The notes under the pieces are model-generated. The model made no database searches. It had not been told where the DNA came from and was given only the letters and a program-made list of their open reading frames with translations. Below are positions 1 through 15,231 of a stretch of 64,000 nucleotides of DNA, in pieces (positions within the stretch are counted from its first letter, which is position 1; every line of letters begins with the position of its first letter). The translations under genes were made by a program, and so were the position numbers. The DNA is taken from positions 32,001 through 96,000 of the forward strand of contig CAYSCM010000001.1 in the NCBI GenBank assembly GCA_964429815.1. Reading direction: 5' to 3'. The stretch comes from an uncultured Candidatus Saccharibacteria bacterium (lineage in GTDB: Bacteria > Patescibacteriota > Minisyncoccia > Phycocordibacterales > CAYSCM01).

Positions 1-268
1 TTCCCCGCGCGCGAGCGTACGTGAGTGGGACGTTGTTGGAGCCCGAACCGTTGCGGGCAATGGTTTTGAGGTTGACCATCCGTGCAAGCGCATCGACAGT
101 GAGAATCTCGTGCCCAAGAAGAAGGGCGACGACCCTCTCAGGCTCCGCAAGTGCGCCTGGATTTCTTTCGTGAAGAACTTCGAGACCCGCATCCTTGGCG
201 AGAGTCTGGAAATCCTTTTTGCCCGCATAGGTTCCGGGCGTTACGACAAGAACATTTTCTTTCTGCAT
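1..268 (-). CDS. D-isomer-specific 2-hydroxyacid dehydrogenase-like protein, N-terminal part (gene continues beyond window start)
   Basis: ATG at 268..266 preceded by AAGGAG. Translation MQKENVLVVTPGTYAGKKDF...NLKTIARNGSGSNNV resembles the N-terminal substrate domain of D-2-hydroxyacid/phosphoglycerate dehydrogenases. Absent from the ORF track because there is no in-window stop. Confidence 0.4.
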   Translation of the reverse strand, partial: MQKENVLVVTPGTYAGKKDFQTLAKDAGLEVLHERNPGALAEPERVVALLLGHEILTVDALARMVNLKTIARNGSGSNNVPLTYARARG

Positions 269-386
269 GCCCTTCTCCTTCTTTCGTGGCCAACTCATGG
301 GGCCCCTCGCAGTTGTTCGGGTTTGAGACGTGCAAAATCCTGGGCCATACTACTTACCGCTTGTCAAATAGTCAACTCCCCGATCT

Positions 387-419
387 ATAAAAAGTTAAGA
401 GCGGTCCGAAGACCGCTCT
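387..419 (-). terminator. rho-independent terminator after the KdsC-like gene
   Basis: AGAGCGGTC-CGAA-GACCGCTCT hairpin at 398..419. It is preceded on the plus strand by an A-run (387..397), which is a T-run on the minus strand. Confidence 0.5.
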
Positions 420-440
420 CGTAGGGCAGAAATCCGCAGG

Positions 441-1028
441 TTAGCCGTAGGGCAGCTCAAAGGGATCCTTCTTGTGGACGACTTCGACCAGGAAGTTCGC
501 GAGGTCGCGAATCGCACCCTCGCCGCCTGGCCGGATGCTCACGAAGTGGCAAATCCTCTTGATGGCCTCCTCGCCGGAGATCGGCGCTGCCGAAAAGTGC
601 ACGGCCTTGAGCATCGCGACATCGACAAGGTCGTCGCCCATGGCCCCGCATTGATTAAGTGTTCCCCCGTGTTTGGCGAGCCATTCCTTGAGCGTCTCGA
701 GCTTCTTGGGCCCGCCGCACCCTTCGAAAAGGTCGATGGGGGGCCAGGCACCGCTTTTGCAGGAAGGGAGATTGTTCAGCCGCTCTACGAGCGCGCGGAC
801 ACCGGCTGCGTTATCATCCTTCTCGTTGGTGATGACGCACAGGCGGATGCCGAGCGCCCGCATAAGAGAGAGCCCCTGGCCGTCGTAGTACGTGCGGATT
901 TTGGGTTTGAATTTCACGCCCCCGATCTCGACGCCTTCCCACACGGTGTTTGGAAAAAGGCATCCGTCGGAATCAAACGCGAAGAAAGAGACTTCGCGGG
1001 CACGTTCGAGTACTTCGGTGGACCACAT
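441..1028 (-). CDS. HAD-IIIA phosphatase, KdsC family (3-deoxy-ulosonate phosphate phosphatase-like)
   Basis: FAFDSDGCL (DxDG), GDDLVDVAMLK and GGEGAIRDL motifs typical of KdsC. AGGAGG lies 7 nt upstream of the ATG at 1028. The track ORF extends to 1082, but that start lacks an RBS. Confidence 0.7.
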   Translation of the reverse strand: MWSTEVLERAREVSFFAFDSDGCLFPNTVWEGVEIGGVKFKPKIRTYYDGQGLSLMRALGIRLCVITNEKDDNAAGVRALVERLNNLPSCKSGAWPPIDLFEGCGGPKKLETLKEWLAKHGGTLNQCGAMGDDLVDVAMLKAVHFSAAPISGEEAIKRICHFVSIRPGGEGAIRDLANFLVEVVHKKDPFELPYG

Positions 1029-1160
1029 GGTCCCTCCTGTTTGTTTGTTGGCTACTGTTTGGCCGGACGCATTCTGACACATCCATTTTATTTGTCAATA
1101 TTCTTCCAGGCTGTCTGGCAATAGAAACCCGTGCTAAGCTTCGCGAGTAACAAACGCGCT

Positions 1161-1697
1161 ATGGACCACCTTAGTCCAGAACTTAGGAAGAAATTCTCGC
1201 AGGTACAGTTTCTCGCGCTCGACTTCGACGGCATTTTCACCACGGGCCACGTGTACGTGCGCCAAGATGGAGAAGAAAGCGTTAAGTGCGACCGGCGCGA
1301 CGGCTTTGGGATTGAGCTTCTGCGCCGAGCCGGAGCCGTTAAAGCTTGCATCATCTCGCGAGAGCCAAACCCCGTCGTGACGGCGCGCGCAAAAAAGCTC
1401 CAACTCCCGGTGTGGCAAGGGATCGAGCGCGGAGGAGGAAAGCTCGAGGTACTCAAAGCTCACGTGGCCGAGCTCGGCATTGCGCTTGAGAACGTCGCAT
1501 ACATGGGGGATGACCTCATCGACATTGCGGTGCTACGAAGCGTCGGACTCCCTATCAGCGTCCCGAACGCCCATCCGAAAGCGCAGAGAGAGGCCCTCTA
1601 CGTCACCAGAGCAGGCGGCGGGGACGGAGCGATCCGTGAGGTCGCCGAGCTTCTCTTGCTAAGCAAAGGTTTCGACCTCGAGGAGCTCTCCCGTTAG
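1161..1697 (+). CDS. HAD-IIIA phosphatase, KdsC family (second divergent paralogue)
   Basis: LALDFDGIF, GDDLIDIAVLRSVGLP and GGDGAIREVAELLL align along the whole length with KdsC. Alternative GTG start at 1131. Divergently oriented to the first paralogue. Confidence 0.65.
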   Translation: MDHLSPELRKKFSQVQFLALDFDGIFTTGHVYVRQDGEESVKCDRRDGFGIELLRRAGAVKACIISREPNPVVTARAKKLQLPVWQGIERGGGKLEVLKAHVAELGIALENVAYMGDDLIDIAVLRSVGLPISVPNAHPKAQREALYVTRAGGGDGAIREVAELLLLSKGFDLEELSR

Positions 1698-1737
1698 CCC
1701 AGTGACCCTTTATATGCGTGGTATGGTTATCTCACCT

Positions 1738-2454
1738 ATGAAAAACGATGTCGTGCTAGTGATCCCGGCTCGCGGTGGAAGCAAGGGAGTGCCGCGGAAA
1801 AATATCCGCCCGCTCTATGGAAAGCCCTTGGTTGCCTACACCATTGAAGCGGCGCTTTCCTCAGGAGCCATTAGCCGCGTTATTGTCTCGACCGATGATC
1901 AAGAGATTGGAGCAGTGGCAGAAAAATTTGGTGCGGAGTATCTTGACCGACCGAAAGAAATTTCCGGTGATAAGGTGACACTCGAGCCGGTGATTAAACA
2001 CGCTCTTGCGGCGCTAAAAGAAAAGGAAAACTACGTACCCACCTACATTGCCTGCATTCAGCCGACTTCCCCACTCCTTAGTGGAGATGTTATACGACGT
2101 TGTGTGGAAAAACTTACAAAAGAAAATTTTGATTCATGCATTACTGCGTTTTTGCCTGACACCTACGAATGGAAGTGGAGTCCAATCGTCAAAGACGGTA
2201 AAGAAGTCGGCTTCGAACCTGAACGACCTGTTATGAAGCGCGTGGTGCGGCAAGATTTGCCCAAGGTTTACCACGAGAACGGCGCCTTTTACGTCACCAA
2301 GACCTCACTTTTTAACGAAATCGGCCATCGCTGGGGAGGCAAGATGGCGATCGTTGAGATGACGCAGTTGAATTCTATACAAGTCGATAGCGAAGACCAA
2401 TTCTGGTTTATTGAACAGATCCTCCGCAAGCGCGAAAAAGACAACAAATCGTAG
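1738..2454 (+). CDS. CMP-nonulosonic acid synthetase (acylneuraminate cytidylyltransferase, NeuA/PseF/LegF family)
   Basis: The N-terminal VLVIPARGGSKGVPRKN motif is diagnostic of the NeuA-type cytidylyltransferase family. The track ORF starts at GTG 1702. ATG 1738 gives the canonical MK-x4-IPARGGSKG N-terminus. Confidence 0.7.
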   Translation: MKNDVVLVIPARGGSKGVPRKNIRPLYGKPLVAYTIEAALSSGAISRVIVSTDDQEIGAVAEKFGAEYLDRPKEISGDKVTLEPVIKHALAALKEKENYVPTYIACIQPTSPLLSGDVIRRCVEKLTKENFDSCITAFLPDTYEWKWSPIVKDGKEVGFEPERPVMKRVVRQDLPKVYHENGAFYVTKTSLFNEIGHRWGGKMAIVEMTQLNSIQVDSEDQFWFIEQILRKREKDNKS

Positions 2455-2511
2455 CCGCAGTCACTAGACAAATCATCGATTTTCTGGTCTATTGACACCA
2501 GTAACAGATCG

Positions 2512-2544
2512 CCCTCTAAAAATGTTTAGAGGGTAGGCTCTTTT
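2512..2544 (+). terminator. possible weak terminator hairpin between the cytidylyltransferase and radical SAM genes
   Basis: CCCTCTAAA-AATG-TTTAGAGGG 9-bp stem followed by TAGGCTCTTTT. A TTGACA at 2489..2494 overlaps it. Confidence 0.3.
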
Positions 2545-2564
2545 ACAGTTTACAGGAGGAACCA

Positions 2565-4307
2565 ATGACTCTCGAGCTCAGGGACTTTGTCCCGAAGAAG
2601 GCCCTCGGGCTCCATCCCGCCGACGTTGTCGCTGGGATTCCCTGGGGAGGACTCTCCGGTATGCGGGTGTGTTTCATCAACATGCCACTGCGGGAGTCCG
2701 CGAAGCCAAATACCCCGCCGCAAGGTCCCGGCCTTATGGCGGCCCGTCTTATGCAGTATGGCGCTGACGTCTCGATTATCGACCTCAACGGCTACCGTAT
2801 CGATGACGAAGAAGCGCACAAGCGCGGACTCGTCAATGGCCGACACGTCTCCCACAATGAGGCGCGTCAGCTCATCGAGGCGACTTTCCACAAGTTCGGC
2901 GAACCGCACGTGATTGGCCTTTCGGGGAAAATCACGACGTTGCGCTGGCAGGAGTGGACCGCCAAGACGTGTCGTTCGCTCGCTCCAGAGGCGTTTCTCA
3001 TCTCCGGCGGTGGGCTCGCGACCGAGTTCAAAGAAGGACTCTTCAGCTGGGTGCCGCAGCTCGACGCGGTCGGCCACTCGGAAGGCGACGACATCATGGT
3101 CGCCTGCGTGAATGACGTTCGCAAGAGCGGAGGCAAGCGCGAGCGCATGACCGACTCGCCCTACTACGTGGGCGAAATCGGCGGACGCCACCGCTTCCTC
3201 TATGCGGGCGATCGACCAAGGGACCTCGATGCGCTACCGTTTGCTGCGCTCGAACTTCTCGAAGAAGACGTCTTTGGCAATCGCATACTCGACGAGTACA
3301 TCGCGACCCCCGTATGGGGACTCGCGGCGAACAACTCGTCGGCGGCACCTTTCGAGATGAGGAAGTCTCTCACGACCGTCTCCTCTCGCGGCTGTCCGTA
3401 TGCCTGCGCGTTCTGCTTCCGTGGAGCGCAAGGCGAGCAAAAGTGGGGGATCCGCTCCCCCGAGAACCTGCGAGCCGAAGCCGAGTGGATGATTCGGAAG
3501 TATGGCGTGGATTTCATCGGGTTTCCCGATGACAACTTTGCCGTAAGCGTCAAGCGCTGCCAATCGCTTCCGGAGGCCTTTGACGGGCTCTCGTTTCGTT
3601 GGGGCACGCATACGCGCCTTGACGAATGCACGCTCGATCGGATCGTGCCCATGGCGAAAGCTGGGTGCATCTATATCGGCGTCGGTGCCGAATCGGCCTC
3701 GAAACACACCCTCTACCGCATGAAAAAGGGCGGACACATCGTCCGCAAGGACGGCGTGGAGCGTCTCACGAAATGGAACGGGTTCGAATTTCCGACAACG
3801 ATGATCGAGGGGATTCGAAATTGCCGAGACGTGGGTATCCACGTGAACGCGACCTGGATCATGGGATACCCAGGGGAAACCTTGGAGGACCTCAAGACCT
3901 CGGTTGCTTTCATTTCCTGGCAACAGGAGCACTACACCAAGGGATTGGTGCCCGGCACGCCGGAGTATCAAAATGCCTCGGCGTCGGTGAATCGACGCAT
4001 GTTCACGGCGACGTGGTATCCGGGGACCACCATGGTGGAAGCCCCCGAAGCCACGAAACCGCGGGAGCTCCTCGGCGAGCACTTCGGGATTCGTTTCGTC
4101 GAGAAAGGAAGCGGGCATGCACACAAGTTCGTCCCCGTTCCCGACGACGCAATGAAAGCCTATGTGCTGGAACTCGATGACGCGACTAAGATCCTCCACG
4201 GATCCGACGGAGCGCCCATCAACTACTCGGACATGCCGGAGGAGGTCTTCCTCGAGGCCCGTAGTCACATCGATTCGGGTCAAACGGAAAAGATCCTGTC
4301 GATGTAA
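2565..4307 (+). CDS. B12-binding (class B) radical SAM enzyme, probable radical methyltransferase acting on a sugar
   Basis: N-terminal cobalamin-binding-like domain (MRVCFINMPL...ADVSIIDLNGYRI). CxxxCxxC cluster in SSRGCPYACAFCF. AGGAGG 6 nt upstream of the ATG. Confidence 0.75.
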   Translation: MTLELRDFVPKKALGLHPADVVAGIPWGGLSGMRVCFINMPLRESAKPNTPPQGPGLMAARLMQYGADVSIIDLNGYRIDDEEAHKRGLVNGRHVSHNEARQLIEATFHKFGEPHVIGLSGKITTLRWQEWTAKTCRSLAPEAFLISGGGLATEFKEGLFSWVPQLDAVGHSEGDDIMVACVNDVRKSGGKRERMTDSPYYVGEIGGRHRFLYAGDRPRDLDALPFAALELLEEDVFGNRILDEYIATPVWGLAANNSSAAPFEMRKSLTTVSSRGCPYACAFCFRGAQGEQKWGIRSPENLRAEAEWMIRKYGVDFIGFPDDNFAVSVKRCQSLPEAFDGLSFRWGTHTRLDECTLDRIVPMAKAGCIYIGVGAESASKHTLYRMKKGGHIVRKDGVERLTKWNGFEFPTTMIEGIRNCRDVGIHVNATWIMGYPGETLEDLKTSVAFISWQQEHYTKGLVPGTPEYQNASASVNRRMFTATWYPGTTMVEAPEATKPRELLGEHFGIRFVEKGSGHAHKFVPVPDDAMKAYVLELDDATKILHGSDGAPINYSDMPEEVFLEARSHIDSGQTEKILSM

Positions 4308-4324
4308 TCCAGTTCTCTCACTCA

Positions 4325-4358
4325 GGGACCGCAGCAATGCGGTCCTTTTTTATTTTTA
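4325..4358 (+). terminator. rho-independent terminator
   Basis: GGACCGCA-GCAA-TGCGGTCC hairpin followed by TTTTTTATTTTTA. Confidence 0.7.
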
Positions 4359-4431
4359 TGGTCGTTCGCATCCTCATCCTGACCAATCATCGTGCTTTTT
4401 GATGTGAGCGTGCTTTAGGTATAGTGGAGCG

Positions 4432-5394
4432 ATGAAGATAGTACGGTGGTCCATACCCAAGCACCTCGATCTGTCGATTGAGATTTCCGGTAGAGAACAT
4501 ATGGCACAGGGAGAAAAGATGGGGTCTACGAAAGCCTTGGATGTCCTGCGCGGAATAACCTTCAGCGGCTCAGCGCCGGCGATACAGTTTGCCGATGTCG
4601 AGTCTTTATTTTCCTTTGTAGAAAAAAAATTTTTACATAAGACATTTGCGGGAGTCGGCATCGAAGTCGGCGCGGGGCCGATGATATTTAGCTCGCTCCT
4701 TACGCGCTCACGACCAAACATTCAACAGATGTATGGAATCGAACTAAGTGGCGGTATCGTAGAATTCATTGCCCCGGGAGTGGTTGATGAATTGCTGGGA
4801 CCCAAGAGTGAAAAGGTAGTCGGGGTCATCGGCAGTTTCGACGCGATGGAGCTTACAAGCGAGAGTGTCGATTTTGTTCTTGATTTTATGTCGCTTCACC
4901 ATGCGACCGACCTCGGAGAGGCGTTCGCCGAATGCTACCGGGTGCTAAAACCAGGCGGCTTCGTTGTTCTTTTTGACAAGGCTCGCCCCGATTCCTTCAC
5001 CTCTCAAGACCTGGAGGGATTGCTCAATACCGAGTACAGCGATGAAGAGAAAAAACGCTTTGGGGTGCCTTCCGGCGAACACTTTACACGCCGGATGAAC
5101 GGGGAAAAAGAATACCGGCTTAAAGATTGGTCGGCGGGGGCCTTAGAGGCCGGTTTCCCGACCCTTATGCATTGGCGACTCGCGCGCACCAACGTGCCGG
5201 GTATCTCAGGATTGTACCGACGTTTGCTTTCTCATGTGCCGCTACGCACCCAGATGGCTACTACCGCTATTGCACAAAGCGTACTGGGCAGCGGCTCAAG
5301 AGTGAAGTTTTCACAAAAAAATTTGGTGTACTCGCGGTACGTGAACCCCTTCCCCCGCGAGATCTCGCTCATGATCGCGCACAAGGCTTACTAA
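4432..5394 (+). CDS. class I SAM-dependent methyltransferase
   Basis: GIEVGAGPM glycine-rich motif I and LKPGGFVVL motif. Start uncertain: ATG 4432 sits 7 nt after a TATAGT hexamer, and an internal ATG at 4519 follows GGGAGA. Confidence 0.6.
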   Translation: MKIVRWSIPKHLDLSIEISGREHMAQGEKMGSTKALDVLRGITFSGSAPAIQFADVESLFSFVEKKFLHKTFAGVGIEVGAGPMIFSSLLTRSRPNIQQMYGIELSGGIVEFIAPGVVDELLGPKSEKVVGVIGSFDAMELTSESVDFVLDFMSLHHATDLGEAFAECYRVLKPGGFVVLFDKARPDSFTSQDLEGLLNTEYSDEEKKRFGVPSGEHFTRRMNGEKEYRLKDWSAGALEAGFPTLMHWRLARTNVPGISGLYRRLLSHVPLRTQMATTAIAQSVLGSGSRVKFSQKNLVYSRYVNPFPREISLMIAHKAY

Positions 5395-6299
5395 CTTCTC
5401 CACGCGCTCAGGTCGCGCCCGGTAAATGCCTCGAGTTTTTGCAGTTCGGGTTCATAGCGAGCGCGGAGGGCTTCTTTGAGCTTCGGGTCGAGCGTCCCGT
5501 AGCTAGCTTCCCCGGTCCCCGCCCTCGTGTCGATGGAGCGCACTACTTTTTGGTGGAGCGGCGTTTTGCGGAAGAGGGAGAGGAGGGGCTCTCCGAATGG
5601 CAGGGCTTTGAGTAGCTTCCGCGCCCTGAGCGCGTGTCTGCGCAAGAGTGTCGCTCCGGCGGAATTTATGGTCGTGGCGAGCGAGGGCGGCACGAACGAG
5701 GCATCGACGCCGATGAAAGAAAAGATATCTCTCATATATTTTTTTGGGTCGGCACGCATATCGTCATAGAACGTAATGAGTATCTGGTCGCGGGAAAATA
5801 CCTTGAGATAATTTTCGAGGTGCTTCATATAGAAGCTCTCCTCGATAAACGACGGTTTAGTTTTAATAATTTCCTCAAGGGTTGGGAGCTCATGTGCGCC
5901 CTTTAGCTTCGTGTACATGTAGTGGGAAAAAAAGCGCTCCGTAGGGTTTCGCAATACCGCAATGATCTTCGCTTTAGGAAAATGTGTACGGAGGCGCTCC
6001 GGCACCTCGGGTGCGTGAATATAGATAGGAGTGACTTCTCCGTATACCCTCTTCCCTACACAGTGACCAAAATGTTCAAAATACCCTTCGAGAGCGCCGT
6101 TGTATTTTGTTTTCCCCACCAAATCAGTGCGCCAGAAACTTTGCGTCGTGTTAAAAAAGTTGAGCTCTTTGGGTTCGGAAACACAGACCTCGGGGTGCTC
6201 TTTGAGACATTGGTGGAGCCAGGTGGTGCCCGTCCGCTCCGGACCAATCACGAAGAAATCAATGGAAAAAGGCTTTGCTGTAGATGAAATGGTACTCAT
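5391..6299 (-). CDS. sulfotransferase family protein (PAPS-dependent)
   Basis: 5'-PSB-like motif FFVIGPERTGTTWLHQ and 3'-PB-like motif RNPTERFFSHY. Confidence 0.65.
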   Translation of the reverse strand: MSTISSTAKPFSIDFFVIGPERTGTTWLHQCLKEHPEVCVSEPKELNFFNTTQSFWRTDLVGKTKYNGALEGYFEHFGHCVGKRVYGEVTPIYIHAPEVPERLRTHFPKAKIIAVLRNPTERFFSHYMYTKLKGAHELPTLEEIIKTKPSFIEESFYMKHLENYLKVFSRDQILITFYDDMRADPKKYMRDIFSFIGVDASFVPPSLATTINSAGATLLRRHALRARKLLKALPFGEPLLSLFRKTPLHQKVVRSIDTRAGTGEASYGTLDPKLKEALRARYEPELQKLEAFTGRDLSAWRS

Positions 6300-6931
6300 G
6301 AGGCCGTCGGGATGGATTCCTTGTCGCGGTTTGAGAAAAACAGGTAGTCGACGATGGCGTGGAAGAAAACCGCGTGAAGCGCCTCAACGGGACCGTAGGC
6401 ACCTTTTCCTGTCTCAATGATTATCTTGTGGTGACAGAGGCTCTTCGCTTTGCCTCCGTCAAAACCAAGAACGCCTATCGCCGTGCCGCCCTTAGCGCAT
6501 ATGTACTCGATCGCGCGAAGCACATTGGGGGAATTGCCACTTGCGGAAATGACGATGAGCACATCGTCGGGACGAAAAATGTGCTTAAGCTGGTCCGCAA
6601 AAACGTTCTCGTAGCCGACATCGTTCCCGAGCGCCGTCACGGCGGCGATATTGTTGAGCGCGTGAATACGAAACGGCTTTTCTTCCGTACCACCCCCGTT
6701 CGTGGTGAGATCGGCCGCAAAGTGAGCCGCCATGGCAGCGCTCCCCCCGTTGCCGGCGATGTAGATCGTAGAGCCCCTCTCCCGGGCCTTTTGAAGCACG
6801 TCGATAATCTCCTCGACCGCTTTGGAATCTACGGCGGAAGCAAGCTCGAAGGCATGCGCAAGATACCCTTCCATAAATTCGGGTACCGATCCTTTTGTCT
6901 TTTGATAGATGGTATCGACGTGTCCTCTCAT
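6296..6931 (-). CDS. gmhA: D-sedoheptulose-7-phosphate isomerase (SIS domain)
   Basis: IYIAGNGGSAAMAAHFAADL matches the GmhA SIS signature. 4-nt overlap with the upstream sulfotransferase gene. Confidence 0.7.
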   Translation of the reverse strand: MRGHVDTIYQKTKGSVPEFMEGYLAHAFELASAVDSKAVEEIIDVLQKARERGSTIYIAGNGGSAAMAAHFAADLTTNGGGTEEKPFRIHALNNIAAVTALGNDVGYENVFADQLKHIFRPDDVLIVISASGNSPNVLRAIEYICAKGGTAIGVLGFDGGKAKSLCHHKIIIETGKGAYGPVEALHAVFFHAIVDYLFFSNRDKESIPTAS

Positions 6932-7932
6932 AGCGTTGTGAGCACCCCGCGGATGAGCTTCCCTTCCTCGAGGTCTTTGAGGGCGGCTCCTATCTCGTCG
7001 AAGGAATACTCTTTCGTAAGTAACTTATCCAAGCACATGACCTTCGGGTTTTCAACGTATTCACGCGCGTAGCGAGGAATGTCGCGGTCGAGCTCGCTCT
7101 CTCCGCCCCAGGTGCCGTAAAGCTTTTTGCCCTTGATGAGCCCGAAAGGGTTGATCGATATGGTTTCCCCGGGCGCAAGGTTTCCTGCAATAACGACGGT
7201 CCCGGCGTCCTTGACCGCGCGGTAGGCGCTCTCCATGGCGCCCTTGTTTCCCGAACACTCGACGGCCACATCGAAATCCTTTCCCTGAAACTCTTCGGCA
7301 GAGATCGCTTCATCGACGCCGAGCTCCTTTTTCGCATGCGCGAGCTTCCACGGAACGACGTCGATCGCGGTAACGTGAGCACCCTTCATGACGGCTCGAA
7401 TGAGTGCACTCGCTCCGATCCCCCCGATGCCGAATATAACCACTCGTTTGCCGTTGAGGTCTCCTAGGCGGTCGATGATACCCATGCCGGTCGGCACCGC
7501 GCACCCAAGAAGTGCCGCAATCGCGGGCTCCACCCCTTTTGACACCTTGGTGACACGATTCTCTGAGACGACCGCAAGCTCGGTAAACGTCGCCACGGAG
7601 CCACCGTTTACCTTCCCTTCTTTGCTTTGATACGTCGGCACCGGAGCGGATATACCCTCTCCAAGGATCCAACTTGCAACCACATAATCTCCGCTCCTTA
7701 CTTTCTGCACGCCTTCTCCGGCCGCGACCACCTCCGCTGCGGCTTCATGTCCCAATAAGTGGGGAATATATTCCGCTCCTTTCCTGCCGCGGATTTCATT
7801 GAGTTGGCTGTGGCAAAGTCCTGTCGCTAGCACTTTAATAAGTACCTGCCCCTTTTGAAGGGAGGGAACCTCAAGCTCCTCGATGGAGAGCGGTCCACCG
7901 ACGACGCGGAGTACTGCAGCGCGCGTTTTCAT
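6928..7932 (-). CDS. zinc-dependent medium-chain alcohol dehydrogenase/reductase
   Basis: GLCHSQ...GHEAAAEV zinc-ligand region and GIGGIGASALIRA Rossmann motif. ATG at 7932 (MKTRAAVL), the typical ADH N-terminus. Confidence 0.65.
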   Translation of the reverse strand: MKTRAAVLRVVGGPLSIEELEVPSLQKGQVLIKVLATGLCHSQLNEIRGRKGAEYIPHLLGHEAAAEVVAAGEGVQKVRSGDYVVASWILGEGISAPVPTYQSKEGKVNGGSVATFTELAVVSENRVTKVSKGVEPAIAALLGCAVPTGMGIIDRLGDLNGKRVVIFGIGGIGASALIRAVMKGAHVTAIDVVPWKLAHAKKELGVDEAISAEEFQGKDFDVAVECSGNKGAMESAYRAVKDAGTVVIAGNLAPGETISINPFGLIKGKKLYGTWGGESELDRDIPRYAREYVENPKVMCLDKLLTKEYSFDEIGAALKDLEEGKLIRGVLTTL

Positions 7933-7933
7933 G

Positions 7934-8587
7934 CTAGGGGATAAACCAGTAGTAGTCACCCGTGTAGCCGACCTCGGCGAAGAGTTTTTTCCAATCATCG
8001 ACAGATAGGATGGTCTTTGCAGTAAGATTCCACTTCATCATGCGATCCTTCTCTTCTTCATGGTGGTAGGCGTCGACGGTAATGAACGAGTGTTTTCCTT
8101 TCACACGCTCAATCTCTCGAAGAGCCTCTTTACACTCAGGCAGTGGTAGGTTGTGAATGGTGTTAATCGAAATCACGAGATCGTAGGATTTATCCGCAAA
8201 TTGACTAAGATTTCTTGCATCTCCAACCGATACTGCGCCCGCAATTGAGGGCATGGCATTTTCGATAGCGTAGGAGGAAACATCAATACCGCGAACCACC
8301 ATGTGGGGAAGCCAATAGAGAAAATCATTAAGCATAAATCCCTTAGCACACCCGACATCAAGTACCGAAGAGTTGTTGTTGAGTCCGTAGTAATTTATGA
8401 AATCCCGAACCACCGGTACCCACCTCCCATCATAGCGGAAGCCGCCGTAGCCCTGATCCCTGGTGCCATCAAAAAACTCCCTGCCAAACTTTCGGGCAGT
8501 AGCAACATCCTCAGGAGACTTTTGTCCTCGAGCTTCAATGTTGCGTTTGGCTTTTGGATATTTCGAAAGAAGATCGATTTCTGCCAT
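7934..8587 (-). CDS. class I SAM-dependent methyltransferase
   Basis: VLDVGCAKG motif I and DLVISINTIHNLP motif. Confidence 0.6.
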   Translation of the reverse strand: MAEIDLLSKYPKAKRNIEARGQKSPEDVATARKFGREFFDGTRDQGYGGFRYDGRWVPVVRDFINYYGLNNNSSVLDVGCAKGFMLNDFLYWLPHMVVRGIDVSSYAIENAMPSIAGAVSVGDARNLSQFADKSYDLVISINTIHNLPLPECKEALREIERVKGKHSFITVDAYHHEEEKDRMMKWNLTAKTILSVDDWKKLFAEVGYTGDYYWFIP

Positions 8588-8596
8588 AGTGGTTGG

Positions 8597-10366
8597 TTAT
8601 TTTTTTTCGGGAAGAAGCTTAACCATCATGTTGTCATTGAACTCTTTTCTTGCAAGTAGCGGCTCGGGATCCTCGAGCGGCCGACCGAACTTTACCTGCG
8701 GGATTACGCGGTGCTTCGGGTTAATCTCGATGTTACAAAACACAGGCCCCCTCATCGCGAGCACCTTCTTAACTCCCCCGCTCAACTCGCGGTTCTTCTT
8801 GATCGTAATGGTTTTGAAGCCAAAGGAGGAAGCAATTTTGGCAAAGTCTGGGAACGCAAGTCCTCCCCCTTCCGAAGACGCAAGATACGCCGAATTAAAC
8901 CACTGATCTTGAGTCTGCTGTATCATACTGTAGCCGTGGTTATTCAATACAAAAATCTTGATCGGAAGTTTGTGCTTGAGAAGGGTACTTAACTCTTGCA
9001 AATTCATTTGGAGTGAACCATCTCCGGTTACACAAATAATTGATTTCTTGTTAAGCGCCAGGCTTACCCCAATGCTCGCCGGCAAAGCCCACCCCATCGC
9101 GGTGTTGTTCCAATCGTGGTAAAGACGCTGACCTTTCTTGAAGGAAAATCCCTGCATCATCCATGCGACCGTGCAGCCGGTATCAATGACCATTACTTCG
9201 TTCTGACGCGTGTAGCGAGAGAGCTCCTCAACAAATACATACGGATTGACCCCTTTCTCTTTGTAGTACGCGGGTGGGCACATGGGATATTTTTTCTTCC
9301 ATGCGGCAATACGTCTAAGCCAGGGTGAGATGTCGTTTTTTGGCAAACGTGCGGCGTGCTTTTGAAATGCCTTCAGCAGCTCTTTTGCGTCACCGGAGAT
9401 ACGCACATCGACTTTCAGGCCAAATTTTTTAAACTTCTTAAGTTCGTAGGGGTCAATATCGATGACTATCTTTTTTGCCTCTCGCGCAAACGTGTTGGGA
9501 GGACTACCCGTCGATTTGGTATCAAGACGGCTTCCGATTGAGAGGATCATGTCAGCGTTCTGGACGGCAAAATTGGCAAACCGCGTGCCGTGAGTGCCAA
9601 AGGTGCCGATGCGAAGTGGATGACTCTCTGGCAGGAGATCCCCTGCCCCCCATGTGAGTGCCGCAGGAAAGCCGAGTGTTTCCAAAAGTGAGATGGCCTC
9701 TTTTTCGGCCCCCGCGAGGTGGATTCCCCACCCAAACACAACGACGGGGCGCTTCGCCTGCCGTAGATAGTTTATGCTTCGAGCTACATCAACCGGCGCT
9801 TTCTTCTTCTCGACGGAGGGTGTAAACGAGGGAAGCTCTCCTGGATTAATTTCTCTGCGCTGAATGTCGTCGGGAATATCGAGCACTACGGGTCCTGGCC
9901 TACCACTTCGCGCCAGAAAGATCGCTTTCTCAAGCTCGTAGCGTATGCGCCTCTCATCGGTGATGAGTATCGCGTACTTAGTGATAGGACGATACATTTC
10001 GACCGTTGCCGTTTCTTGAAAACCCACTTGCCGCACGTTGGTATGACCTTTCATCCTAAAGGTGGCTACTTGGCCGGTAATAAATATGACGGGTACCGAA
10101 TCGTAGTAGGCGGAGCACACTCCCGTGATCATGTTCGTAGCACCTGGCCCTGAGGTGGACATCGCTACACCGAGGCCACCCGTGGCCCTCGCGTACCCGT
10201 CGGCAGCCATTGCCCCCGCTTGCTCGTGTCCTGGACAGATGACCTCCATTCCCCCCGTGCGCGCCACCGAATGAATAAGGTGAAGGGATGCTCCGCCGGA
10301 GATGGCAAAGACATGCTTCACCCCTTCTTTGCGGAGAACCTGTGCTACGTAGTCGGTGAGCTTCAT
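8597..10366 (-). CDS. thiamine-diphosphate-dependent enzyme, acetolactate-synthase large-subunit-like (candidate sugar C-branching enzyme, YerE-like)
   Basis: N-terminal TPP pyrimidine-binding domain (AISGGASLHLIH...GPGATNMITG). Central domain. C-terminal TPP-binding GDGSLQMNLQELST...NNHGY motif. Confidence 0.7.
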   Translation of the reverse strand: MKLTDYVAQVLRKEGVKHVFAISGGASLHLIHSVARTGGMEVICPGHEQAGAMAADGYARATGGLGVAMSTSGPGATNMITGVCSAYYDSVPVIFITGQVATFRMKGHTNVRQVGFQETATVEMYRPITKYAILITDERRIRYELEKAIFLARSGRPGPVVLDIPDDIQRREINPGELPSFTPSVEKKKAPVDVARSINYLRQAKRPVVVFGWGIHLAGAEKEAISLLETLGFPAALTWGAGDLLPESHPLRIGTFGTHGTRFANFAVQNADMILSIGSRLDTKSTGSPPNTFAREAKKIVIDIDPYELKKFKKFGLKVDVRISGDAKELLKAFQKHAARLPKNDISPWLRRIAAWKKKYPMCPPAYYKEKGVNPYVFVEELSRYTRQNEVMVIDTGCTVAWMMQGFSFKKGQRLYHDWNNTAMGWALPASIGVSLALNKKSIICVTGDGSLQMNLQELSTLLKHKLPIKIFVLNNHGYSMIQQTQDQWFNSAYLASSEGGGLAFPDFAKIASSFGFKTITIKKNRELSGGVKKVLAMRGPVFCNIEINPKHRVIPQVKFGRPLEDPEPLLARKEFNDNMMVKLLPEKK

Positions 10367-10370
10367 GGCG

Positions 10371-11228
10371 CTACCAGGGCATCTGCTCCTTAACGCTTAT
10401 AAAGAGTGTCCCGTCACGGTAGCTCTCGGGCATATCGCCGGCTTTTGTGACAAGTCCCCACCCTATCTTCTGCGAGAACAAATTGACGCCGGAGCCTGTA
10501 AAGTGCTTGAAAATGTGCTTGGCATTCTCCGCGGTCCCAACCTCGACCAGGCCGTCACAGCTCTCCCAATCGGAAGCTTCGGTCGAGAGGAGTACTTCCT
10601 TCTCGTGCCCTTCGACGTCCATTTTGATGAGATCAGCGCCGGCGAGAATCGGCCCGAACGCTTCGAGCTCCACGGAGAACATTTCCCGATCCCCGTAGAC
10701 GTCGTGCTTTGCTCCCGAGAGGTGACTCCCCGTAGTGTTGCCGAGCACTCGGGTAAAATCTGCTGAACCCGAGCGACTTGAGACGGCGCTGTTGTGAAGG
10801 CTGGCAGAATTACATCCGTTACGCGCAAGATTTTTTTTGAGGATATCGAAATGAACCGGATCGGGCTCGTAGGAGGAAACCTTAAAACCACAACGACAAA
10901 GGATAATCGAGTGAAGTCCAATATTTGCTCCGAGGTCTACAACGCTCGTATAGCGATTGCGATTGCGCCAGTAAAAACTGAAAATAACGAGTTCATTGAG
11001 GTCAAAGAGATTCCGCGAATCGACATTACCCATGTTGTGGTATGGAAACGAGATATCTCCAAATGGCGGAAAGTGGACCGACTCTTTTGAATCAACGGGA
11101 AAGAGCCTCTCCACTTCCTTCCGAGCTTTGGCGGCACGTTCTTTGAATGGCGCGCTTGTCGGAGTATGAGAGGGTAATTCCTGCGGGAGCGTGGCAAAGA
11201 TATTCTCCAAAAAAGCCGAGGATTCCAT
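10371..11228 (-). CDS. FkbM-family methyltransferase
   Basis: VVDLGANIGLHS and IKMDVEGHE motifs characteristic of the FkbM family. Confidence 0.6.
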   Translation of the reverse strand: MESSAFLENIFATLPQELPSHTPTSAPFKERAAKARKEVERLFPVDSKESVHFPPFGDISFPYHNMGNVDSRNLFDLNELVIFSFYWRNRNRYTSVVDLGANIGLHSIILCRCGFKVSSYEPDPVHFDILKKNLARNGCNSASLHNSAVSSRSGSADFTRVLGNTTGSHLSGAKHDVYGDREMFSVELEAFGPILAGADLIKMDVEGHEKEVLLSTEASDWESCDGLVEVGTAENAKHIFKHFTGSGVNLFSQKIGWGLVTKAGDMPESYRDGTLFISVKEQMPW

Positions 11229-11244
11229 GACGGGAGATACCCTA

Positions 11245-12042
11245 TCAGATTTTTCGTAATTTTAATAGCTCGGGGTCACGCGCGAGCGTTTTTGAAAAGC
11301 GCGCGCTCCCCCACGCGTCATAGACAACGTGTACATCTCTTCCCCCGACTACCTTTTTTGCTGACCCAATGACCCAGTCGAGACAGTCGAGAACTCGCTC
11401 CATGGGTATAAAGTCCCCGCGCGCTAGCTTTTTCCTTGTTCGAGCATACGTATCGCCCGCGCGCCTGCCGGCGGTGATAGTCTCCTGATGGATTTTGCTG
11501 CGCACCCAACCGGGGCCTATGGTGACGAAGCGAGCATCGTTCAGCTCCGCGTCGAGGATTTCAAACATTTTTATGGTCGCTATCTTTGAAACGGTATACG
11601 CCGAGAAATTGCGTGGTGCGTTGTTCGTCCCCCCACCAGAAAATGAAATTATGCAGGGTTTTTTGGATTTCGAACGTCTGGGCAGAAGTCCGTGGATGAT
11701 GCCCATGTGAGAAAGAAAATTGAGGCGAATTGATTTTTCCCAGTCTCCGAAAGAAACGCGTTGAAAAGCTCCTATGGGCGTAAGGGTCGCCGGAGCCAGT
11801 ACAAGAACGTCCCAGGCCACCGCGAGGCTCCGCAACGTACGTAGCGCCCTATGTACAGAGGCAGGTCGAGCGACGTCACAGTGTATAAGGTGTGCGCCAA
11901 GTTTTTGCAATCCTTCTGTGGTGTGGCTGCCGGTTCTATACGTGCCGAAAACCGCCCAGCCGCGGTTTAAGTATCTTCGAGCTATGGCGGTGCCGATATC
12001 GCTTGAAATGCCGACGATGATTATTGAGCCAGTTTTTTTCAT
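11245..12042 (-). CDS. short-chain dehydrogenase/reductase (SDR)
   Basis: N-terminal IIIVGISSDIGTAI glycine-rich motif and YTVSK (YxxxK) catalytic motif. Confidence 0.6.
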   Translation of the reverse strand: MKKTGSIIIVGISSDIGTAIARRYLNRGWAVFGTYRTGSHTTEGLQKLGAHLIHCDVARPASVHRALRTLRSLAVAWDVLVLAPATLTPIGAFQRVSFGDWEKSIRLNFLSHMGIIHGLLPRRSKSKKPCIISFSGGGTNNAPRNFSAYTVSKIATIKMFEILDAELNDARFVTIGPGWVRSKIHQETITAGRRAGDTYARTRKKLARGDFIPMERVLDCLDWVIGSAKKVVGGRDVHVVYDAWGSARFSKTLARDPELLKLRKI

Positions 12043-14732: not shown

Positions 14733-14733
14733 G

Positions 14734-15231
14734 TTAGCGTCGGTAGGTTGAATTTTTTTTGATTGCCGTAATGATATCGCGTGTGCTTAATTTTTTGTCT
14801 TTCGTAAAGGTAATCCTGCAACCCACCTTCTGAGCGCTTTGTATTTCCTCTGCGAAATCTTTATTCGGCGGGATACCGCGGTAATCGGGACCGCGCACAT
14901 ACAGGTCCGGCTTGAGAGCACGTATGAATCTTGATCCATTGTTAGCATCATTAATGAACACGAAATCAACCGGGCGAAGCTGCGAGAGCATGTAGGCCCG
15001 CATATGCTCGGTGAACACCGGGCGGCCGATACCTTTTTGTCTTCGTACCTGTTTATCACTTGCGATCGCAACCACGAGCACATCACAGAGGCGCTTTGCG
15101 GATTCAAAATGCATCGCATGCCCGGGGTGGAGCAGATCATAGTTGCCGTTACAAAAACCGATGATCTTCCCCTCCTTTTTACGTCGAGCAAGTATGGGAC
15201 GAAGCTGCTGAAAGGAGATGATGCGTGCCAT
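14734..15231 (-). CDS. D-glycero-beta-D-manno-heptose-1-phosphate adenylyltransferase (HldE/RfaE domain II-like cytidylyltransferase fold)
   Basis: GFCNGNYDLLHPGH nucleotidyltransferase HxGH motif. About 165 aa, as in stand-alone RfaE-II. Confidence 0.65.
   Translation of the reverse strand: MARIISFQQLRPILARRKKEGKIIGFCNGNYDLLHPGHAMHFESAKRLCDVLVVAIASDKQVRRQKGIGRPVFTEHMRAYMLSQLRPVDFVFINDANNGSRFIRALKPDLYVRGPDYRGIPPNKDFAEEIQSAQKVGCRITFTKDKKLSTRDIITAIKKNSTYRR

What the first reader, a model, noticed from the sequence alone, without database searches (positions are those of the whole stretch)
5391..6299. Sulfotransferase no. 1 in the glycan locus
The protein carries clear PAPS-binding 5'-PSB and 3'-PB motifs. 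Together with the second sulfotransferase at 29070..29876, this suggests a sulfated surface glycan. That implies a PAPS supply (cysC/cysN-type genes) not visible in this window. Sulfated glycans are uncommon in bacteria outside a few groups.
Basis: partly seen in the sequence, partly recalled or inferred. Interest (0 to 1): 0.55.

Follow-up and report, generated by a model that had tools for sequence, protein, structure and literature searches.

The report
Sugar sulfotransferase in a CPR bacterium
This gene encodes a conventional sulfate-transferring enzyme inside a very large surface-sugar gene cluster of a tiny-genome (CPR/Parcubacteria-type) bacterium, and the enzyme that makes its sulfate donor (PAPS) is encoded on the same DNA just outside the window, so the cell very probably puts sulfate on a surface glycan.

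Summary
Window 5391..6299 (-) is an intact 302-aa ORF that passes the Pfam thresholds for Sulfotransfer_1 (80 bits, cut-off 22) and Sulfotransfer_3. Its best solved relatives by sequence and predicted fold are 3RNL and the heparan-sulfate 3-O- and N-sulfotransferases. It keeps every PAPS-binding and catalytic position: PSB loop GPERTGTTW with Arg22, Glu45 in K-E-x-x-F-F, and 3'-PB Arg117 and Ser125. These positions are 94-100% conserved across 145 relatives.

The gene is the last cistron of an operon, with an ATGA overlap to the upstream SIS gene. It sits in a glycan locus of more than 50 kb. A second, unrelated sulfotransferase lies at 29070..29876.

On the same contig (0 mismatches over 11 kb of overlap), about 9.2 kb left of the window edge, a 608-aa gene carries ATP-sulfurylase and APS-kinase domains.

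Physically linked SecD points to Parcubacteria/Paceibacterota (CPR). Close orthologues sit in syntenic CPR glycan loci, and Rhizomicrobium homologues lie next to cysD and cysN-cysC.

Verdict: a new, divergent member of a known enzyme family in a known kind of cluster (sulfotransferase plus PAPS synthesis). The acceptor sugar is unknown. The CPR setting appears undescribed in the literature I could search. Interest is moderate.

The parts
5391..6299 (-). ST1: 302-aa soluble PAPS-dependent sulfotransferase of the heparan-sulfate/3RNL type (PF00685)
   Evidence: ORF. Pfam 80.2 bits against a cut-off of 22. 3RNL E 3e-30 over the full length; NDST1 and 3-OST 1e-12 to 1e-9. Model pLDDT 85, best folds 3RNL, 3-OST and NDST1. 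No TM segment.
6219..6245 (-). 5'-phosphosulfate-binding (PSB) loop GPERTGTTW, with Arg22 in the place of the usual catalytic Lys
   Evidence: Translation. Aligns with GPQKTGTT of NDST1 and GAAKCGTS of 3RNL. Position 22 is K in 87 and R in 58 of 145 relatives; G19 96%; T25 is T or S in 100%.
6153..6170 (-). K44-E45-L-N-F-F49 motif; Glu45 is the probable catalytic base
   Evidence: K44, E45 and F49 are invariant in A1; E45 is 141/145. Aligns with KKEAHFF of 3RNL. The same E-x-x-F-F motif occurs in NDST1 (E-I-Q-F-F, sequence printed).
5919..5954 (-). 3'-phosphate-binding (3'-PB) strand-turn-helix LRNPTERFFSHY, with Arg117 and Ser125
   Evidence: Translation. R117 145/145, P119 145/145, S125 144/145. 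Aligns with LRNPVDRAFSAY of 3RNL and INPADRAYSWY of NDST1.
5400..5417 (-). Conserved C-terminal RDLSAW motif, a signature of this family of unknown role
   Evidence: D296, L297 and W300 are invariant in A1; W300 141/145. 3RNL ends with RDLSAWR.
6296..12042 (-). Upstream cistrons of the ST1 operon: SDR (11245..12042), FkbM methyltransferase (10371..11228), acetolactate-synthase-like TPP enzyme (8597..10366), methyltransferase (7934..8587), Zn-ADH (6928..7998), GmhA-like SIS isomerase (6296..6931)
   Evidence: Pfam and NCBIfam. The SIS stop overlaps the ST1 start as ATGA. The SIS, Zn-ADH and methyltransferase trio is conserved at 50-75% identity in Saccharibacteria locus L004.
441..5394 (.). Adjacent ulosonic-acid-type module: two KdsC-family HAD phosphatases (441..1028 -, 1131..1697 +), PseF/KdsB-like cytidylyltransferase (1738..2454 +), B12-type radical SAM enzyme (2565..4307 +), methyltransferase (4432..5394 +, convergent with ST1 and overlapping it by 4 bp)
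   Evidence: Pfam. NCBIfam: KdsC subfamily 114 bits against a cut-off of 107; PseF-like below cut-off. Junction sequence. The module continues left of the window with 2-Hacid_dh x2, AAA_33 kinases x2, NeuB, cupin, a second CMP-transferase, a HAD, and the PAPS synthase.
29070..29876 (-). ST2: a second, unrelated sulfotransferase (Sulfotransfer_3; nearest to the TPST, CurM-ST and NoeE types), directly upstream of a GT4 gene with overlapping ends
   Evidence: Pfam 79 bits against a cut-off of 27. Weak hits to CurM-ST and TPST2. Only marginal similarity to ST1, E 0.02. Its PSB reads GSGHSGST, with His where Lys or Arg is usual.
12216..13496 (+). Wzx-type flippase (Polysacc_synt) of the locus
   Evidence: Pfam. 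Seven or more hydrophobic segments.
13509..41689 (-). Remainder of the glycan locus: TagD- and TagF-like enzymes, NDP-sugar 4,6-dehydratases and epimerases, E1 alpha and beta, DegT aminotransferase, C-methyltransferase (+ strand), UDP-Glc dehydrogenase, AsnB-type amidotransferase, at least 8 GT4 glycosyltransferases
   Evidence: Pfam.
56237..57586 (-). Bac_transf initiating sugar-phosphate transferase, a candidate primer of the lipid-linked glycan, separated from the main locus by the 16S rRNA region
   Evidence: Pfam 182 bits. Five hydrophobic segments.

Best explanation
ST1 is a soluble, cytoplasmic, PAPS-dependent carbohydrate sulfotransferase of the heparan-sulfate/3RNL branch of PF00685. 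The mechanism is inferred from the family. The PSB loop (G19..W27) holds the 5'-phosphosulfate of PAPS. Arg117 and Ser125 hold the 3'-phosphate. Glu45 deprotonates an acceptor hydroxyl (or amine). Arg22 stabilises the in-line, SN2-like transfer of SO3 to the acceptor, releasing PAP. The acceptor is most likely a sugar of the glycan built by the surrounding >50-kb locus. Sulfation would occur either at the nucleotide-sugar stage or on the lipid-linked oligosaccharide, before Wzx flips it outward. PAPS is supplied locally by a fused ATP sulfurylase/APS kinase encoded about 14.6 kb away on the same contig. The host is a CPR (Parcubacteria/Paceibacterota-like) bacterium. What is shown: family membership, motif integrity, operon and locus context, presence of the PAPS synthase gene, and conservation of the context in relatives. 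What is inferred: activity, acceptor identity, and the timing of sulfation.
For: Family and fold: Pfam scores above cut-off; 3RNL E 3e-30 over the full length, then NDST1 and 3-OST; AlphaFold pLDDT 85 and pTM 0.80, with Foldseek top hits 3RNL (E 2e-16), 3-OST-3, 3-OST-1 and NDST1.

Active site across 145 relatives: PSB basic residue 100%, E45 97%, R117 100%, S125 99%. A review states that the defining features are the PSB Lys/Arg, the PB Ser and the beta-sheet fold, and that Glu is the catalytic base in HS3ST1 and NST1 (PMC11625862).

Context: ATGA start/stop overlap with the upstream SIS gene. Sugar-modifying operon and GT-rich locus with Wzx and Bac_transf. No signal peptide or TM segment.

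Donor supply: a 608-aa gene with PUA_2, ATP-sulfurylase and APS_kinase domains at L014 20272 onward. Its visible N-terminus matches solved ATP sulfurylases (1M8P and 1I2D E 2e-9; 3CR8 SAT/APS kinase 9e-6). L014 is identical to window 1..11028 with 0 mismatches.

Comparative: orthologues at 52-53% identity sit in syntenic glycan loci of Nomurabacteria, Saccharibacteria and unnamed CPR MAGs. Rhizomicrobium homologues, in tandem pairs, lie roughly 5-8 kb from an APS-kinase signature; in L005, the one locus scanned with Pfam, these are cysD and a cysN-cysC fusion. A published sulfated-CPS cluster is described as defined by exactly this pairing of PAPS genes with sulfotransferases (PMC11641403).
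Against: There is no biochemical evidence. The acceptor is unknown. Only the first 317 nt of the PAPS synthase gene could be read; the rest rests on precomputed Pfam hits for the called 608-aa product, and its full sequence could not be retrieved. No sulfate transporter or PAP phosphatase (CysQ) was seen in the roughly 73 kb examined. The orthologue loci L004 and L015-L017 show no PAPS genes within +/-10 kb. The PAPS synthase could in principle serve sulfur assimilation instead. NCBIfam has no named model for ST1, and the nearest solved relative, 3RNL, has no known function.
Confidence: 0.8

Rival explanations
1. Refinement of the main explanation: ST1 specifically sulfates the unusual ulosonic or nonulosonic acid (or its CMP-activated form) made by the flanking NeuB / KdsC-phosphatase / CMP-transferase / SIS / Zn-ADH / methyltransferase / radical-SAM module.
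For: ST1 is the last cistron after SIS, Zn-ADH and a methyltransferase, and abuts the HAD / CMP-transferase / rSAM genes. In Saccharibacteria L004 the orthologue lies next to NeuB and within 10 kb of the same module at 42-75% identity (a second HAD copy 33%). The PAPS synthase lies at the far end of the same module.
Against: In four other close orthologue loci (L003, L015, L016, L017), ST1 instead follows an NAD-epimerase/dehydratase within a GT4 / DegT / TagF block, with no NeuB module within 10 kb. The conserved partner is therefore the glycan locus, not the ulosonic module.
Confidence: 0.25
2. ST1 is an N-sulfotransferase that sulfates the amino group of an amino sugar (NDST-like chemistry) rather than a hydroxyl.
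For: The NDST1 N-sulfotransferase domain is as close as the 3-O-sulfotransferases (E 1e-12 against 3e-11). The locus encodes a DegT aminotransferase that makes amino sugars.
Against: Nothing in the sequence discriminates N- from O-sulfation. All bacterial glycan sulfotransferases characterised so far that I know of, or found cited, are O-sulfotransferases: NodH, KpsS and Stf0 (PMC11625862).
Confidence: 0.12
3. The acceptor is not a glycan but a lipid, a small metabolite or a peptide, and the gene's position in the glycan locus is incidental.
For: The superfamily includes glycolipid (Stf0), polyketide (CurM) and tyrosine (TPST) sulfotransferases, which appear as weaker fold hits.
Against: The best matches are all carbohydrate sulfotransferases. 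The gene is translationally coupled to sugar-pathway genes. Every homologue locus examined, in CPR and in Rhizomicrobium, is a glycan locus.
Confidence: 0.08
4. ST1 is an inactive or donor-less relic, and the nearby ATP sulfurylase/APS kinase serves assimilatory sulfate reduction only.
For: No transporter, CysQ or CysH could be checked. Several orthologue loci show no PAPS genes nearby.
Against: All catalytic and PAPS-binding residues are intact. The ORF is intact and identical in independent assemblies of two sequencing runs. The PAPS synthase sits inside the glycan locus next to CMP-sugar genes, not among cysteine-synthesis genes.
Confidence: 0.05

Closest known systems
PDB 3RNL, sulfotransferase from Alicyclobacillus acidocaldarius (structural-genomics entry)
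   Same: Full-length homologue (E 3e-30, residues 14-301). Same PSB, KE-x-x-FF, GE-x-x-x-x-Y, RNP-x-[DE]-R-x-x-S and C-terminal RDLSAWR motifs. Best structural match to the ST1 model, TM 0.68/0.82.
   Different: Only about 23-30% identity. 3RNL has Lys in the PSB where ST1 has Arg. No function or acceptor is known for 3RNL, so it gives no substrate information.
Heparan-sulfate 3-O-sulfotransferases (HS3ST1, 3, 5) and the N-sulfotransferase domain of NDST1
   Same: Same branch of PF00685. PSB loop, Glu catalytic base in E-x-x-F-F, and 3'-PB R..S. The mechanism is presumably the same, with Glu as base, as stated for HS3ST1 and NST1 in PMC11625862.
   Different: About 20-26% identity. The animal enzymes are Golgi-lumenal and act on heparan sulfate chains. 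ST1 is a cytoplasmic bacterial enzyme with Arg in the PSB and an extra C-terminal helical region (residues ~200-300) not aligned to them by sequence. No heparosan synthase (KfiA/KfiC, PmHS-type) was recognised in the locus.
Rhizobial sulfation systems: NodPQ (CysD/CysN-CysC) with NodH, LpsS or KpsS
   Same: The logic is the same: a dedicated PAPS-forming enzyme encoded near sulfotransferases that modify surface or secreted glycans. The Rhizomicrobium homologues of ST1 lie next to a cysD and cysN-cysC pair. KpsS and NodH are described in PMC11625862.
   Different: NodH is Sulfotransfer_3 (PF13469) type with an RxG PSB. Here PAPS is made by a Sat-CysC (ATP-sulfurylase/APS-kinase) fusion, not by the GTPase-dependent CysDN. 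The host is a CPR bacterium.
Sulfated capsular polysaccharide gene cluster of Vibrio sp. KMM 8419 (cysNDC plus three sulfotransferases)
   Same: A polysaccharide cluster containing both PAPS-synthesis genes and sulfotransferases. The authors call this pairing the hallmark of sulfated polysaccharide synthesis (PMC11641403).
   Different: That is an ABC-transporter (Kps) capsule in a gammaproteobacterium with a chemically proven sulfated rhamnose. Here the pathway is Wzx-dependent, no chemistry is available, and the PAPS enzymes are of a different type.
Mycobacterium tuberculosis Stf0 (trehalose 2-sulfotransferase)
   Same: A bacterial PF00685 member with Arg rather than Lys in the PSB loop (PMC11625862).
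   Different: Stf0 acts on a free disaccharide in glycolipid synthesis. It did not appear among the sequence hits or among the 50 fold hits listed.

Membership tests
PAPS-dependent sulfotransferases, Pfam PF00685 (Sulfotransfer_1) | Whole-protein score above the curated gathering threshold | tested here: met
   80.2 bits against a cut-off of 22. PF13469 also passes, at 68.3 against 27.
PAPS-dependent sulfotransferases, Pfam PF00685 (Sulfotransfer_1) | PSB strand-loop-helix with a conserved Gly and a catalytic Lys or Arg, followed by G-T-[TS] | tested here: met
   G19-P-E-R22-T-G-T-T-W aligns with GPQKTGTT of NDST1 and GAAKCGTS of 3RNL. The position is K or R in 145/145 relatives. Definition taken from PMC11625862.
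PAPS-dependent sulfotransferases, Pfam PF00685 (Sulfotransfer_1) | 3'-PB motif R-x-x-x-[DE]-x-x-x-S, with the conserved Ser on the helix | tested here: met
   R117-N-P-T-E121-R-F-F-S125. R117 145/145 and S125 144/145. Aligned to 3RNL and NDST1.
PAPS-dependent sulfotransferases, Pfam PF00685 (Sulfotransfer_1) | Alpha/beta fold with a central parallel beta-sheet that positions the PSB and PB | tested here: met
   AlphaFold model pLDDT 85.2, with strands at 15-18, 85-89, 111-116 and 173-177. Among the 50 best Foldseek hits listed (99 with E<=0.001), all are sulfotransferases.
PAPS-dependent sulfotransferases, Pfam PF00685 (Sulfotransfer_1) | Actual binding of PAPS and transfer of sulfate | not testable with these tools
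   Needs a purified-enzyme assay.
Heparan-sulfate-type branch (NST / 3-OST-like, Glu catalytic base) | Glu (not His) catalytic base in an E-x-x-F-F motif about 22-28 residues after the PSB Lys/Arg | tested here: met
   K44-E45-L-N-F-F49 lies 23 residues after R22. E45 is 141/145. NDST1 shows E-I-Q-F-F at the corresponding place. The residue numbers of the catalytic Glu in the animal enzymes come from my own knowledge.
Heparan-sulfate-type branch (NST / 3-OST-like, Glu catalytic base) | Acts on a heparan or heparosan (GlcNAc/GlcA) chain | tested here: inconclusive
   No heparosan-synthase-type Pfam hit in the locus. All glycosyltransferases found are GT4 (Glycos_transf_1) type or TagF-like. The acceptor is unknown.
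Sulfated-polysaccharide biosynthetic gene cluster (sulfotransferase plus PAPS synthesis within a glycan locus) | A sulfotransferase gene or genes embedded among glycosyltransferase, sugar-nucleotide and export genes | tested here: met
   ST1 and ST2 lie among at least 8 GT4s, dehydratases, epimerases, DegT, Wzx and Bac_transf.
Sulfated-polysaccharide biosynthetic gene cluster (sulfotransferase plus PAPS synthesis within a glycan locus) | ATP sulfurylase and APS kinase encoded in or beside the cluster | tested here: met
   A 608-aa product with PUA_2, ATP-sulfurylase and APS_kinase hits at L014 20272 onward. The N-terminal fragment matches ATP sulfurylase structures at E 2e-9. It is on the same molecule as the window. 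Only the first 105 codons could be read directly.
Sulfated-polysaccharide biosynthetic gene cluster (sulfotransferase plus PAPS synthesis within a glycan locus) | The glycan product carries sulfate esters | not testable with these tools
   Requires chemical analysis of the glycan. The organism is known only from metagenomes.

The most novel reading that the evidence does not exclude
A CPR (Parcubacteria/Paceibacterota-like) bacterium with a reduced genome devotes more than 50 kb, including its own fused PAPS synthase and two unrelated sulfotransferases, to a sulfated and heavily methylated surface glycan. The glycan may bear a branched sugar and a ulosonic acid, and may carry sulfate on the ulosonic acid itself. 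As far as the searchable literature shows, this would be the first sulfated glycan attributed to the Candidate Phyla Radiation. Because it is polyanionic, like glycosaminoglycans or sialic acids, it could be a coat involved in attachment to host cells.
Probability: 0.4. Interest if true: 0.6.

Novelty: new member of a known kind. Interest (0 to 1): 0.38.

Why it matters
The enzyme itself is conventional. What adds value is the setting. CPR/Patescibacteria are uncultured, mostly epibiotic bacteria with minimal metabolism, and their surface chemistry is almost unknown.

A contiguous locus links rRNA genes, SecDF and FtsW to a glycan cluster with two sulfotransferases and a dedicated PAPS synthase. 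That gives a concrete, testable prediction that these cells display a sulfated glycan.

It also adds a divergent bacterial branch of the heparan-sulfate-type sulfotransferases (593 cluster representatives at E<=1e-30). Its only solved relative found here (3RNL) has no known function, and NCBIfam has no named model for ST1. That branch is of interest for enzymatic sulfation of carbohydrates.

If the acceptor were identified, the many homologues in environmental metagenomes could be annotated. This would help address the gap noted in studies of sulfated extracellular polymers, where chemistry finds sulfate but the reference sulfotransferases are not found in the genomes (PMC10483923).

Tried and rejected
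1. Candidate APS kinases. Two P-loop kinase genes just left of the window (L001 18097-18729 and 18891-19604) were considered as the PAPS source. They hit only AAA_33 weakly, not APS_kinase, and match no solved APS kinase. Rejected. The real PAPS synthase lies further left.

2. Full PAPS synthase sequence. I tried to retrieve it by searching with its 105-aa N-terminal fragment and got no hits.

3. Right-hand extension. An exact look-up with my FtsW ORF failed because the gene is called with a different start. The GT4 look-up gave only an 8.8-kb contig lying inside the window.

4. Locus search. The 22-sequence alignment was too divergent for the locus search. The 8-sequence alignment worked.

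5. Catalytic base. I first took E88 (invariant, in Y-G-E-V-T-P) as the catalytic base because phmmer aligned it near NDST1 F-E-K-S. On checking the register, it corresponds to the E of the (V)EK(T)P motif. The catalytic-base equivalent is E45, in K-E-x-x-F-F.

6. NCBIfam. It gives no name for ST1, and only a far-below-cut-off NoeE tail hit for ST2.

7. Paralogy. ST1 and ST2 are not recent paralogues (E 0.02). No third sulfotransferase was found by tblastn in the window or its flank.

8. Literature. Searches for sulfotransferase or PAPS synthesis in Patescibacteria/CPR returned nothing relevant.

9. Polymerase. No Wzy-like multi-TM ORF was found in the window with a simple hydropathy scan.
Full report
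**1. The observation**

Window 5391..6299 on the minus strand is an intact ORF of 302 codons, with an ATG start and a TAG stop. It scores 80.2 bits on Pfam Sulfotransfer_1 (gathering cut-off 22) and 68.3 bits on Sulfotransfer_3 (cut-off 27). The exact protein is on record in NCBI on a 501,704-bp contig. It also appears in independent assemblies of two sequencing runs.

The PSB loop is G19-P-E-R22-T-G-T-T-W (6219..6245). The 3'-PB is L-R117-N-P-T-E-R-F-F-S125-H-Y (5919..5954). The second sulfotransferase at 29070..29876 is also real (Sulfotransfer_3, 79 bits).

**2. What the protein is**

The best solved relative is 3RNL, a bacterial sulfotransferase of unknown function (E 3e-30, aligned end to end). 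Next come the N-sulfotransferase domain of NDST1 (1e-12) and the heparan-sulfate 3-O-sulfotransferases (3e-11 to 4e-9). Cytosolic SULTs are far weaker.

An AlphaFold model built on 22 homologues is confident (pLDDT 85.2, pTM 0.80). Its Foldseek hits reproduce the same order: 3RNL, 3-OST-3, NDST1, 3-OST-1.

In an exhaustive search of 1.84 billion cluster representatives, ST1 has 35,528 relatives at E<=1e-3 and 593 at E<=1e-30. The best of these are mostly full-length proteins of about 300 aa.

Across 145 sequences (ST1 plus 144 of the best relatives), the functional positions are essentially fixed:
- G19: 96%.
- Position 22: always basic (K 87, R 58).
- T25: T or S in 100%.
- K44: 96%. E45: 97%.
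- E88: 94%.
- R117 and P119: 100%.
- S125: 99%.
- W300: 97%.

ST1's Arg in the PSB is therefore a standard variant, as also known for Stf0 (PMC11625862).

The catalytic base needs care. The review states that HS3ST1 and NST1 use a glutamate. In NDST1 the Glu sits in E-I-Q-F-F after the PSB (sequence printed). In 3RNL the matching stretch is K-K-E-A-H-F-F. ST1 has K44-E45-L-N-F-F49. An alignment to HS3ST1 places E45 on the Glu of N-E-V-H-F-F, R22 on the PSB Lys, and R117 and S125 on the 3'-PB Arg and Ser. I conclude that E45 is the probable base. E88, which I first considered, belongs to the separate (V/G)-E-x-(T/S)-P-x-Y motif.

ST1 has no signal peptide or hydrophobic segment. It should therefore work in the cytoplasm, where PAPS is made.

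**3. Context in the window**

The SIS gene upstream ends inside the ST1 start codon (ATGA). ST1 is thus the last, translationally coupled cistron of a minus-strand operon: SDR, FkbM methyltransferase, acetolactate-synthase-like TPP enzyme, methyltransferase, Zn-ADH, GmhA-like SIS isomerase, ST1. Its 3' end overlaps by 4 bp the end of a convergent methyltransferase gene.

To the left lie a B12-type radical-SAM enzyme, a PseF/KdsB-like cytidylyltransferase and two KdsC-family phosphatases.

To the right, up to about 41.7 kb, the locus contains:
- a Wzx flippase;
- TagD- and TagF-like enzymes and a PfkB kinase;
- pyruvate-dehydrogenase-type E1 alpha and beta;
- several NDP-sugar dehydratases and epimerases;
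- DegT, a sugar C-methyltransferase, UDP-Glc dehydrogenase and an AsnB-type amidotransferase;
- ST2 and at least eight GT4 glycosyltransferases.

A Bac_transf initiating transferase and another GT4 lie at 56-59 kb. ST1 and ST2 are not paralogues (E 0.02). ST2 is nearer the TPST, CurM and NoeE types.

**4. The PAPS supply**

Nothing in the window resembles ATP sulfurylase or APS kinase (for Pfam; for motifs). The same contig, recovered from a public assembly, overlaps window 1..11028 with zero mismatches and extends about 9.6 kb further left.

That stretch holds two 2-hydroxyacid dehydrogenases, two weak P-loop kinases, a NeuB-family synthase, a cupin, a second CMP-transferase and a HAD hydrolase. 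At its very end is the start of a 608-aa gene whose product has PUA_2, ATP-sulfurylase and APS_kinase Pfam hits.

The readable N-terminal part aligns with the N-termini of solved ATP sulfurylases. Penicillium 1M8P and 1I2D give 2e-9, yeast 1G8F gives 4e-7, and the bifunctional SAT/APS kinase 3CR8 gives 9e-6. The alignment includes the ...L-T-x-x-Q-x-C-D-L-E-x-I-x-x-G-G-F-S-P-L-x-G-F-M signature.

So a fused PAPS synthase lies about 9.2 kb from the window edge and about 14.6 kb from ST1, inside the same sugar locus. The two P-loop kinases nearer to ST1 are not APS kinases. I could not retrieve the rest of the PAPS synthase gene.

**5. The organism**

The window carries SecD, SecF, FtsW and rRNA genes on the same molecule as the glycan locus. 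SecD's named relatives, at about 60% identity, are Candidatus Paceibacterota, Wolfebacteria, Taylorbacteria, Parcubacteria and Patescibacteria. One hit is labelled candidate division KSB1, and one generic 'bacterium' hit comes at 57%. The host is therefore a CPR bacterium of the Parcubacteria type.

ST1's closest orthologues (52-53% identity) are in Nomurabacteria and Saccharibacteria MAGs. The nearest sequence of all is 59% identical.

**6. Comparative context**

In Saccharibacteria locus L004 the orthologue sits beside NeuB. Within 10 kb it has the cupin, an AAA_33 kinase, the HADs, rSAM, the CMP-transferase, SIS, Zn-ADH and the methyltransferase. Those compared by tblastn (HADs, rSAM, CMP-transferase, SIS, Zn-ADH, methyltransferase) match the window genes at 33-75% identity.

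In four other loci (L003, L015, L016, L017) the orthologue instead directly follows an NAD-dependent epimerase. It lies inside a GT4 / DegT / TagF-like / PfkB / B12-rSAM locus (FkbM in L015 and L016). In L015 that locus ends with TrwB-like and DUF4015 genes, exactly as the window locus does at 42.5-46 kb.

So the conserved association is with this CPR glycan locus as a whole. The link to the ulosonic-acid module holds in two of six cases.

In Rhizomicrobium (Alphaproteobacteria), ST1 homologues at 30-37% identity occur as tandem pairs. They lie roughly 5-8 kb from an APS-kinase signature. In L005 I confirmed CysD plus a CysN-CysC fusion. This is an independent association of the family with PAPS synthesis.

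**7. Mechanism proposed**

Sulfate is activated by the fused ATP sulfurylase/APS kinase to PAPS. ST1 binds PAPS through the PSB loop and through R117 and S125. E45 deprotonates the acceptor, and R22 stabilises the transition state. SO3 is transferred to a sugar hydroxyl (less likely an amine) of a nucleotide-sugar or lipid-linked intermediate. After further assembly, the glycan is flipped by Wzx. ST2 would add a second sulfate, or act on a different residue.

Only family membership, residue conservation and gene context are shown. Activity, acceptor and timing are inferred.

**8. Comparison with what is known**

The arrangement matches what has been called the hallmark of sulfated polysaccharide clusters, namely PAPS genes plus sulfotransferases within the cluster (Vibrio sp. 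KMM 8419; PMC11641403). It also matches the rhizobial NodPQ plus NodH/KpsS logic (PMC11625862).

It differs in three ways: the enzyme branch (HS/3RNL type with Arg in the PSB), the PAPS enzyme type (Sat-CysC fusion), and the host (CPR).

I found no paper that links sulfotransferases or PAPS synthesis to CPR/Patescibacteria. That library is incomplete, however.

**9. Verdict**

The finding is correct and its interpretation is supported. ST1 is a new, divergent member of a well-known enzyme family, in a known type of gene cluster. The interest is moderate and comes from the CPR host and the self-contained PAPS supply. The acceptor remains unknown. The first decisive steps are annotation of the whole genome for sulfate uptake, CysQ and CysH, and an in-vitro assay.

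Noticed in passing
window 50519..51980 (-), 60916..61021 (-), 61464..64000 (-): The rRNA genes are unlinked and in an unusual order. On the minus strand, 23S and 5S come first, then about 9 kb of protein genes (a 264-aa ORF with no Pfam hit, FtsW, GT4, Bac_transf, epimerase, SecD, SecF), and only then the 16S. tRNA-Ile(GAT) and tRNA-Leu(CAG) follow the 16S after a gap of about 1.9 kb with no ORF of 150 aa or more.
   Followed up: partly
window 29820..29846 (-), within ST2: The PSB loop of the second sulfotransferase reads G-S-G-H-S-G-S-T-L. It has His where sulfotransferases normally have the catalytic Lys or Arg (TPST2 GVPRSGTT, CurM-ST SSPRSGST). Whether ST2 is active, or whether His substitutes, was not examined.
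   Followed up: no
L014 20272..20588 (about 9.2 kb left of window position 1): Start of a 608-aa fused ATP sulfurylase/APS kinase gene. The called start adds about 40 residues that do not align to known ATP sulfurylases. The Met at L014 20393 is the more likely start.
   Followed up: partly
L014 12826..13458 (-), 13620..14333 (+); L004 13483..14217 (-): Small P-loop kinases (weak AAA_33 hits only) with no solved relative by sequence are conserved inside the ulosonic-acid module of both this genome and a Saccharibacteria genome. They may be sugar or ulosonate kinases of unknown specificity.
   Followed up: partly
L014 15983..17011 (-) and 19196..20272 (+): Two proteins of 342 and 358 aa with no Pfam or NCBIfam hit flank the second CMP-transferase. 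The second one ends where the PAPS synthase gene starts. They are candidates for novel CMP-sugar-dependent transferases.
   Followed up: no
window 8597..10366 (-), 16250..18269 (-), 29975..31243 (+): An acetolactate-synthase-like TPP enzyme, a pyruvate-dehydrogenase-type E1 alpha/beta pair and a sugar C-methyltransferase all lie inside a glycan locus. This suggests branched-chain or C-acylated sugars (YerE-like chemistry, from my own knowledge).
   Followed up: no
window 41719..45975 (-); L015 18305..20897: A lamin-tail-domain protein, a TrwB/VirD4-like coupling ATPase and a DUF4015 putative glycosyl hydrolase directly follow the glycan locus. The TrwB-like and DUF4015 pair is found at the same place in a related CPR locus, so it may belong functionally to the locus.
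   Followed up: partly
window 12216..13496 (+) and whole window: A Wzx flippase and a Bac_transf initiating transferase are present, but no Wzy-like polymerase or ligase-like multi-TM ORF was seen by hydropathy scan. The product may be an oligosaccharide for protein or lipid glycosylation rather than a polymer.
   Followed up: partly
L005 10001..11685, L007 9174..10543, L008 9174..10804, L011 8598..9976: In Rhizomicrobium MAGs, ST1-family genes occur as tandem pairs. In L005 they lie next to an AT3-SGNH O-acyltransferase, cysD and a cysN-cysC fusion, which looks like a likely sulfated and acylated polysaccharide locus in soil Alphaproteobacteria.
   Followed up: partly
window 19251..20612 (-) against 20354..21724 (-): The longest PfkB ORF (453 aa) overlaps the TagF-like gene by 259 nt. 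Relatives have a 356-aa PfkB, so the true start is probably further downstream.
   Followed up: no
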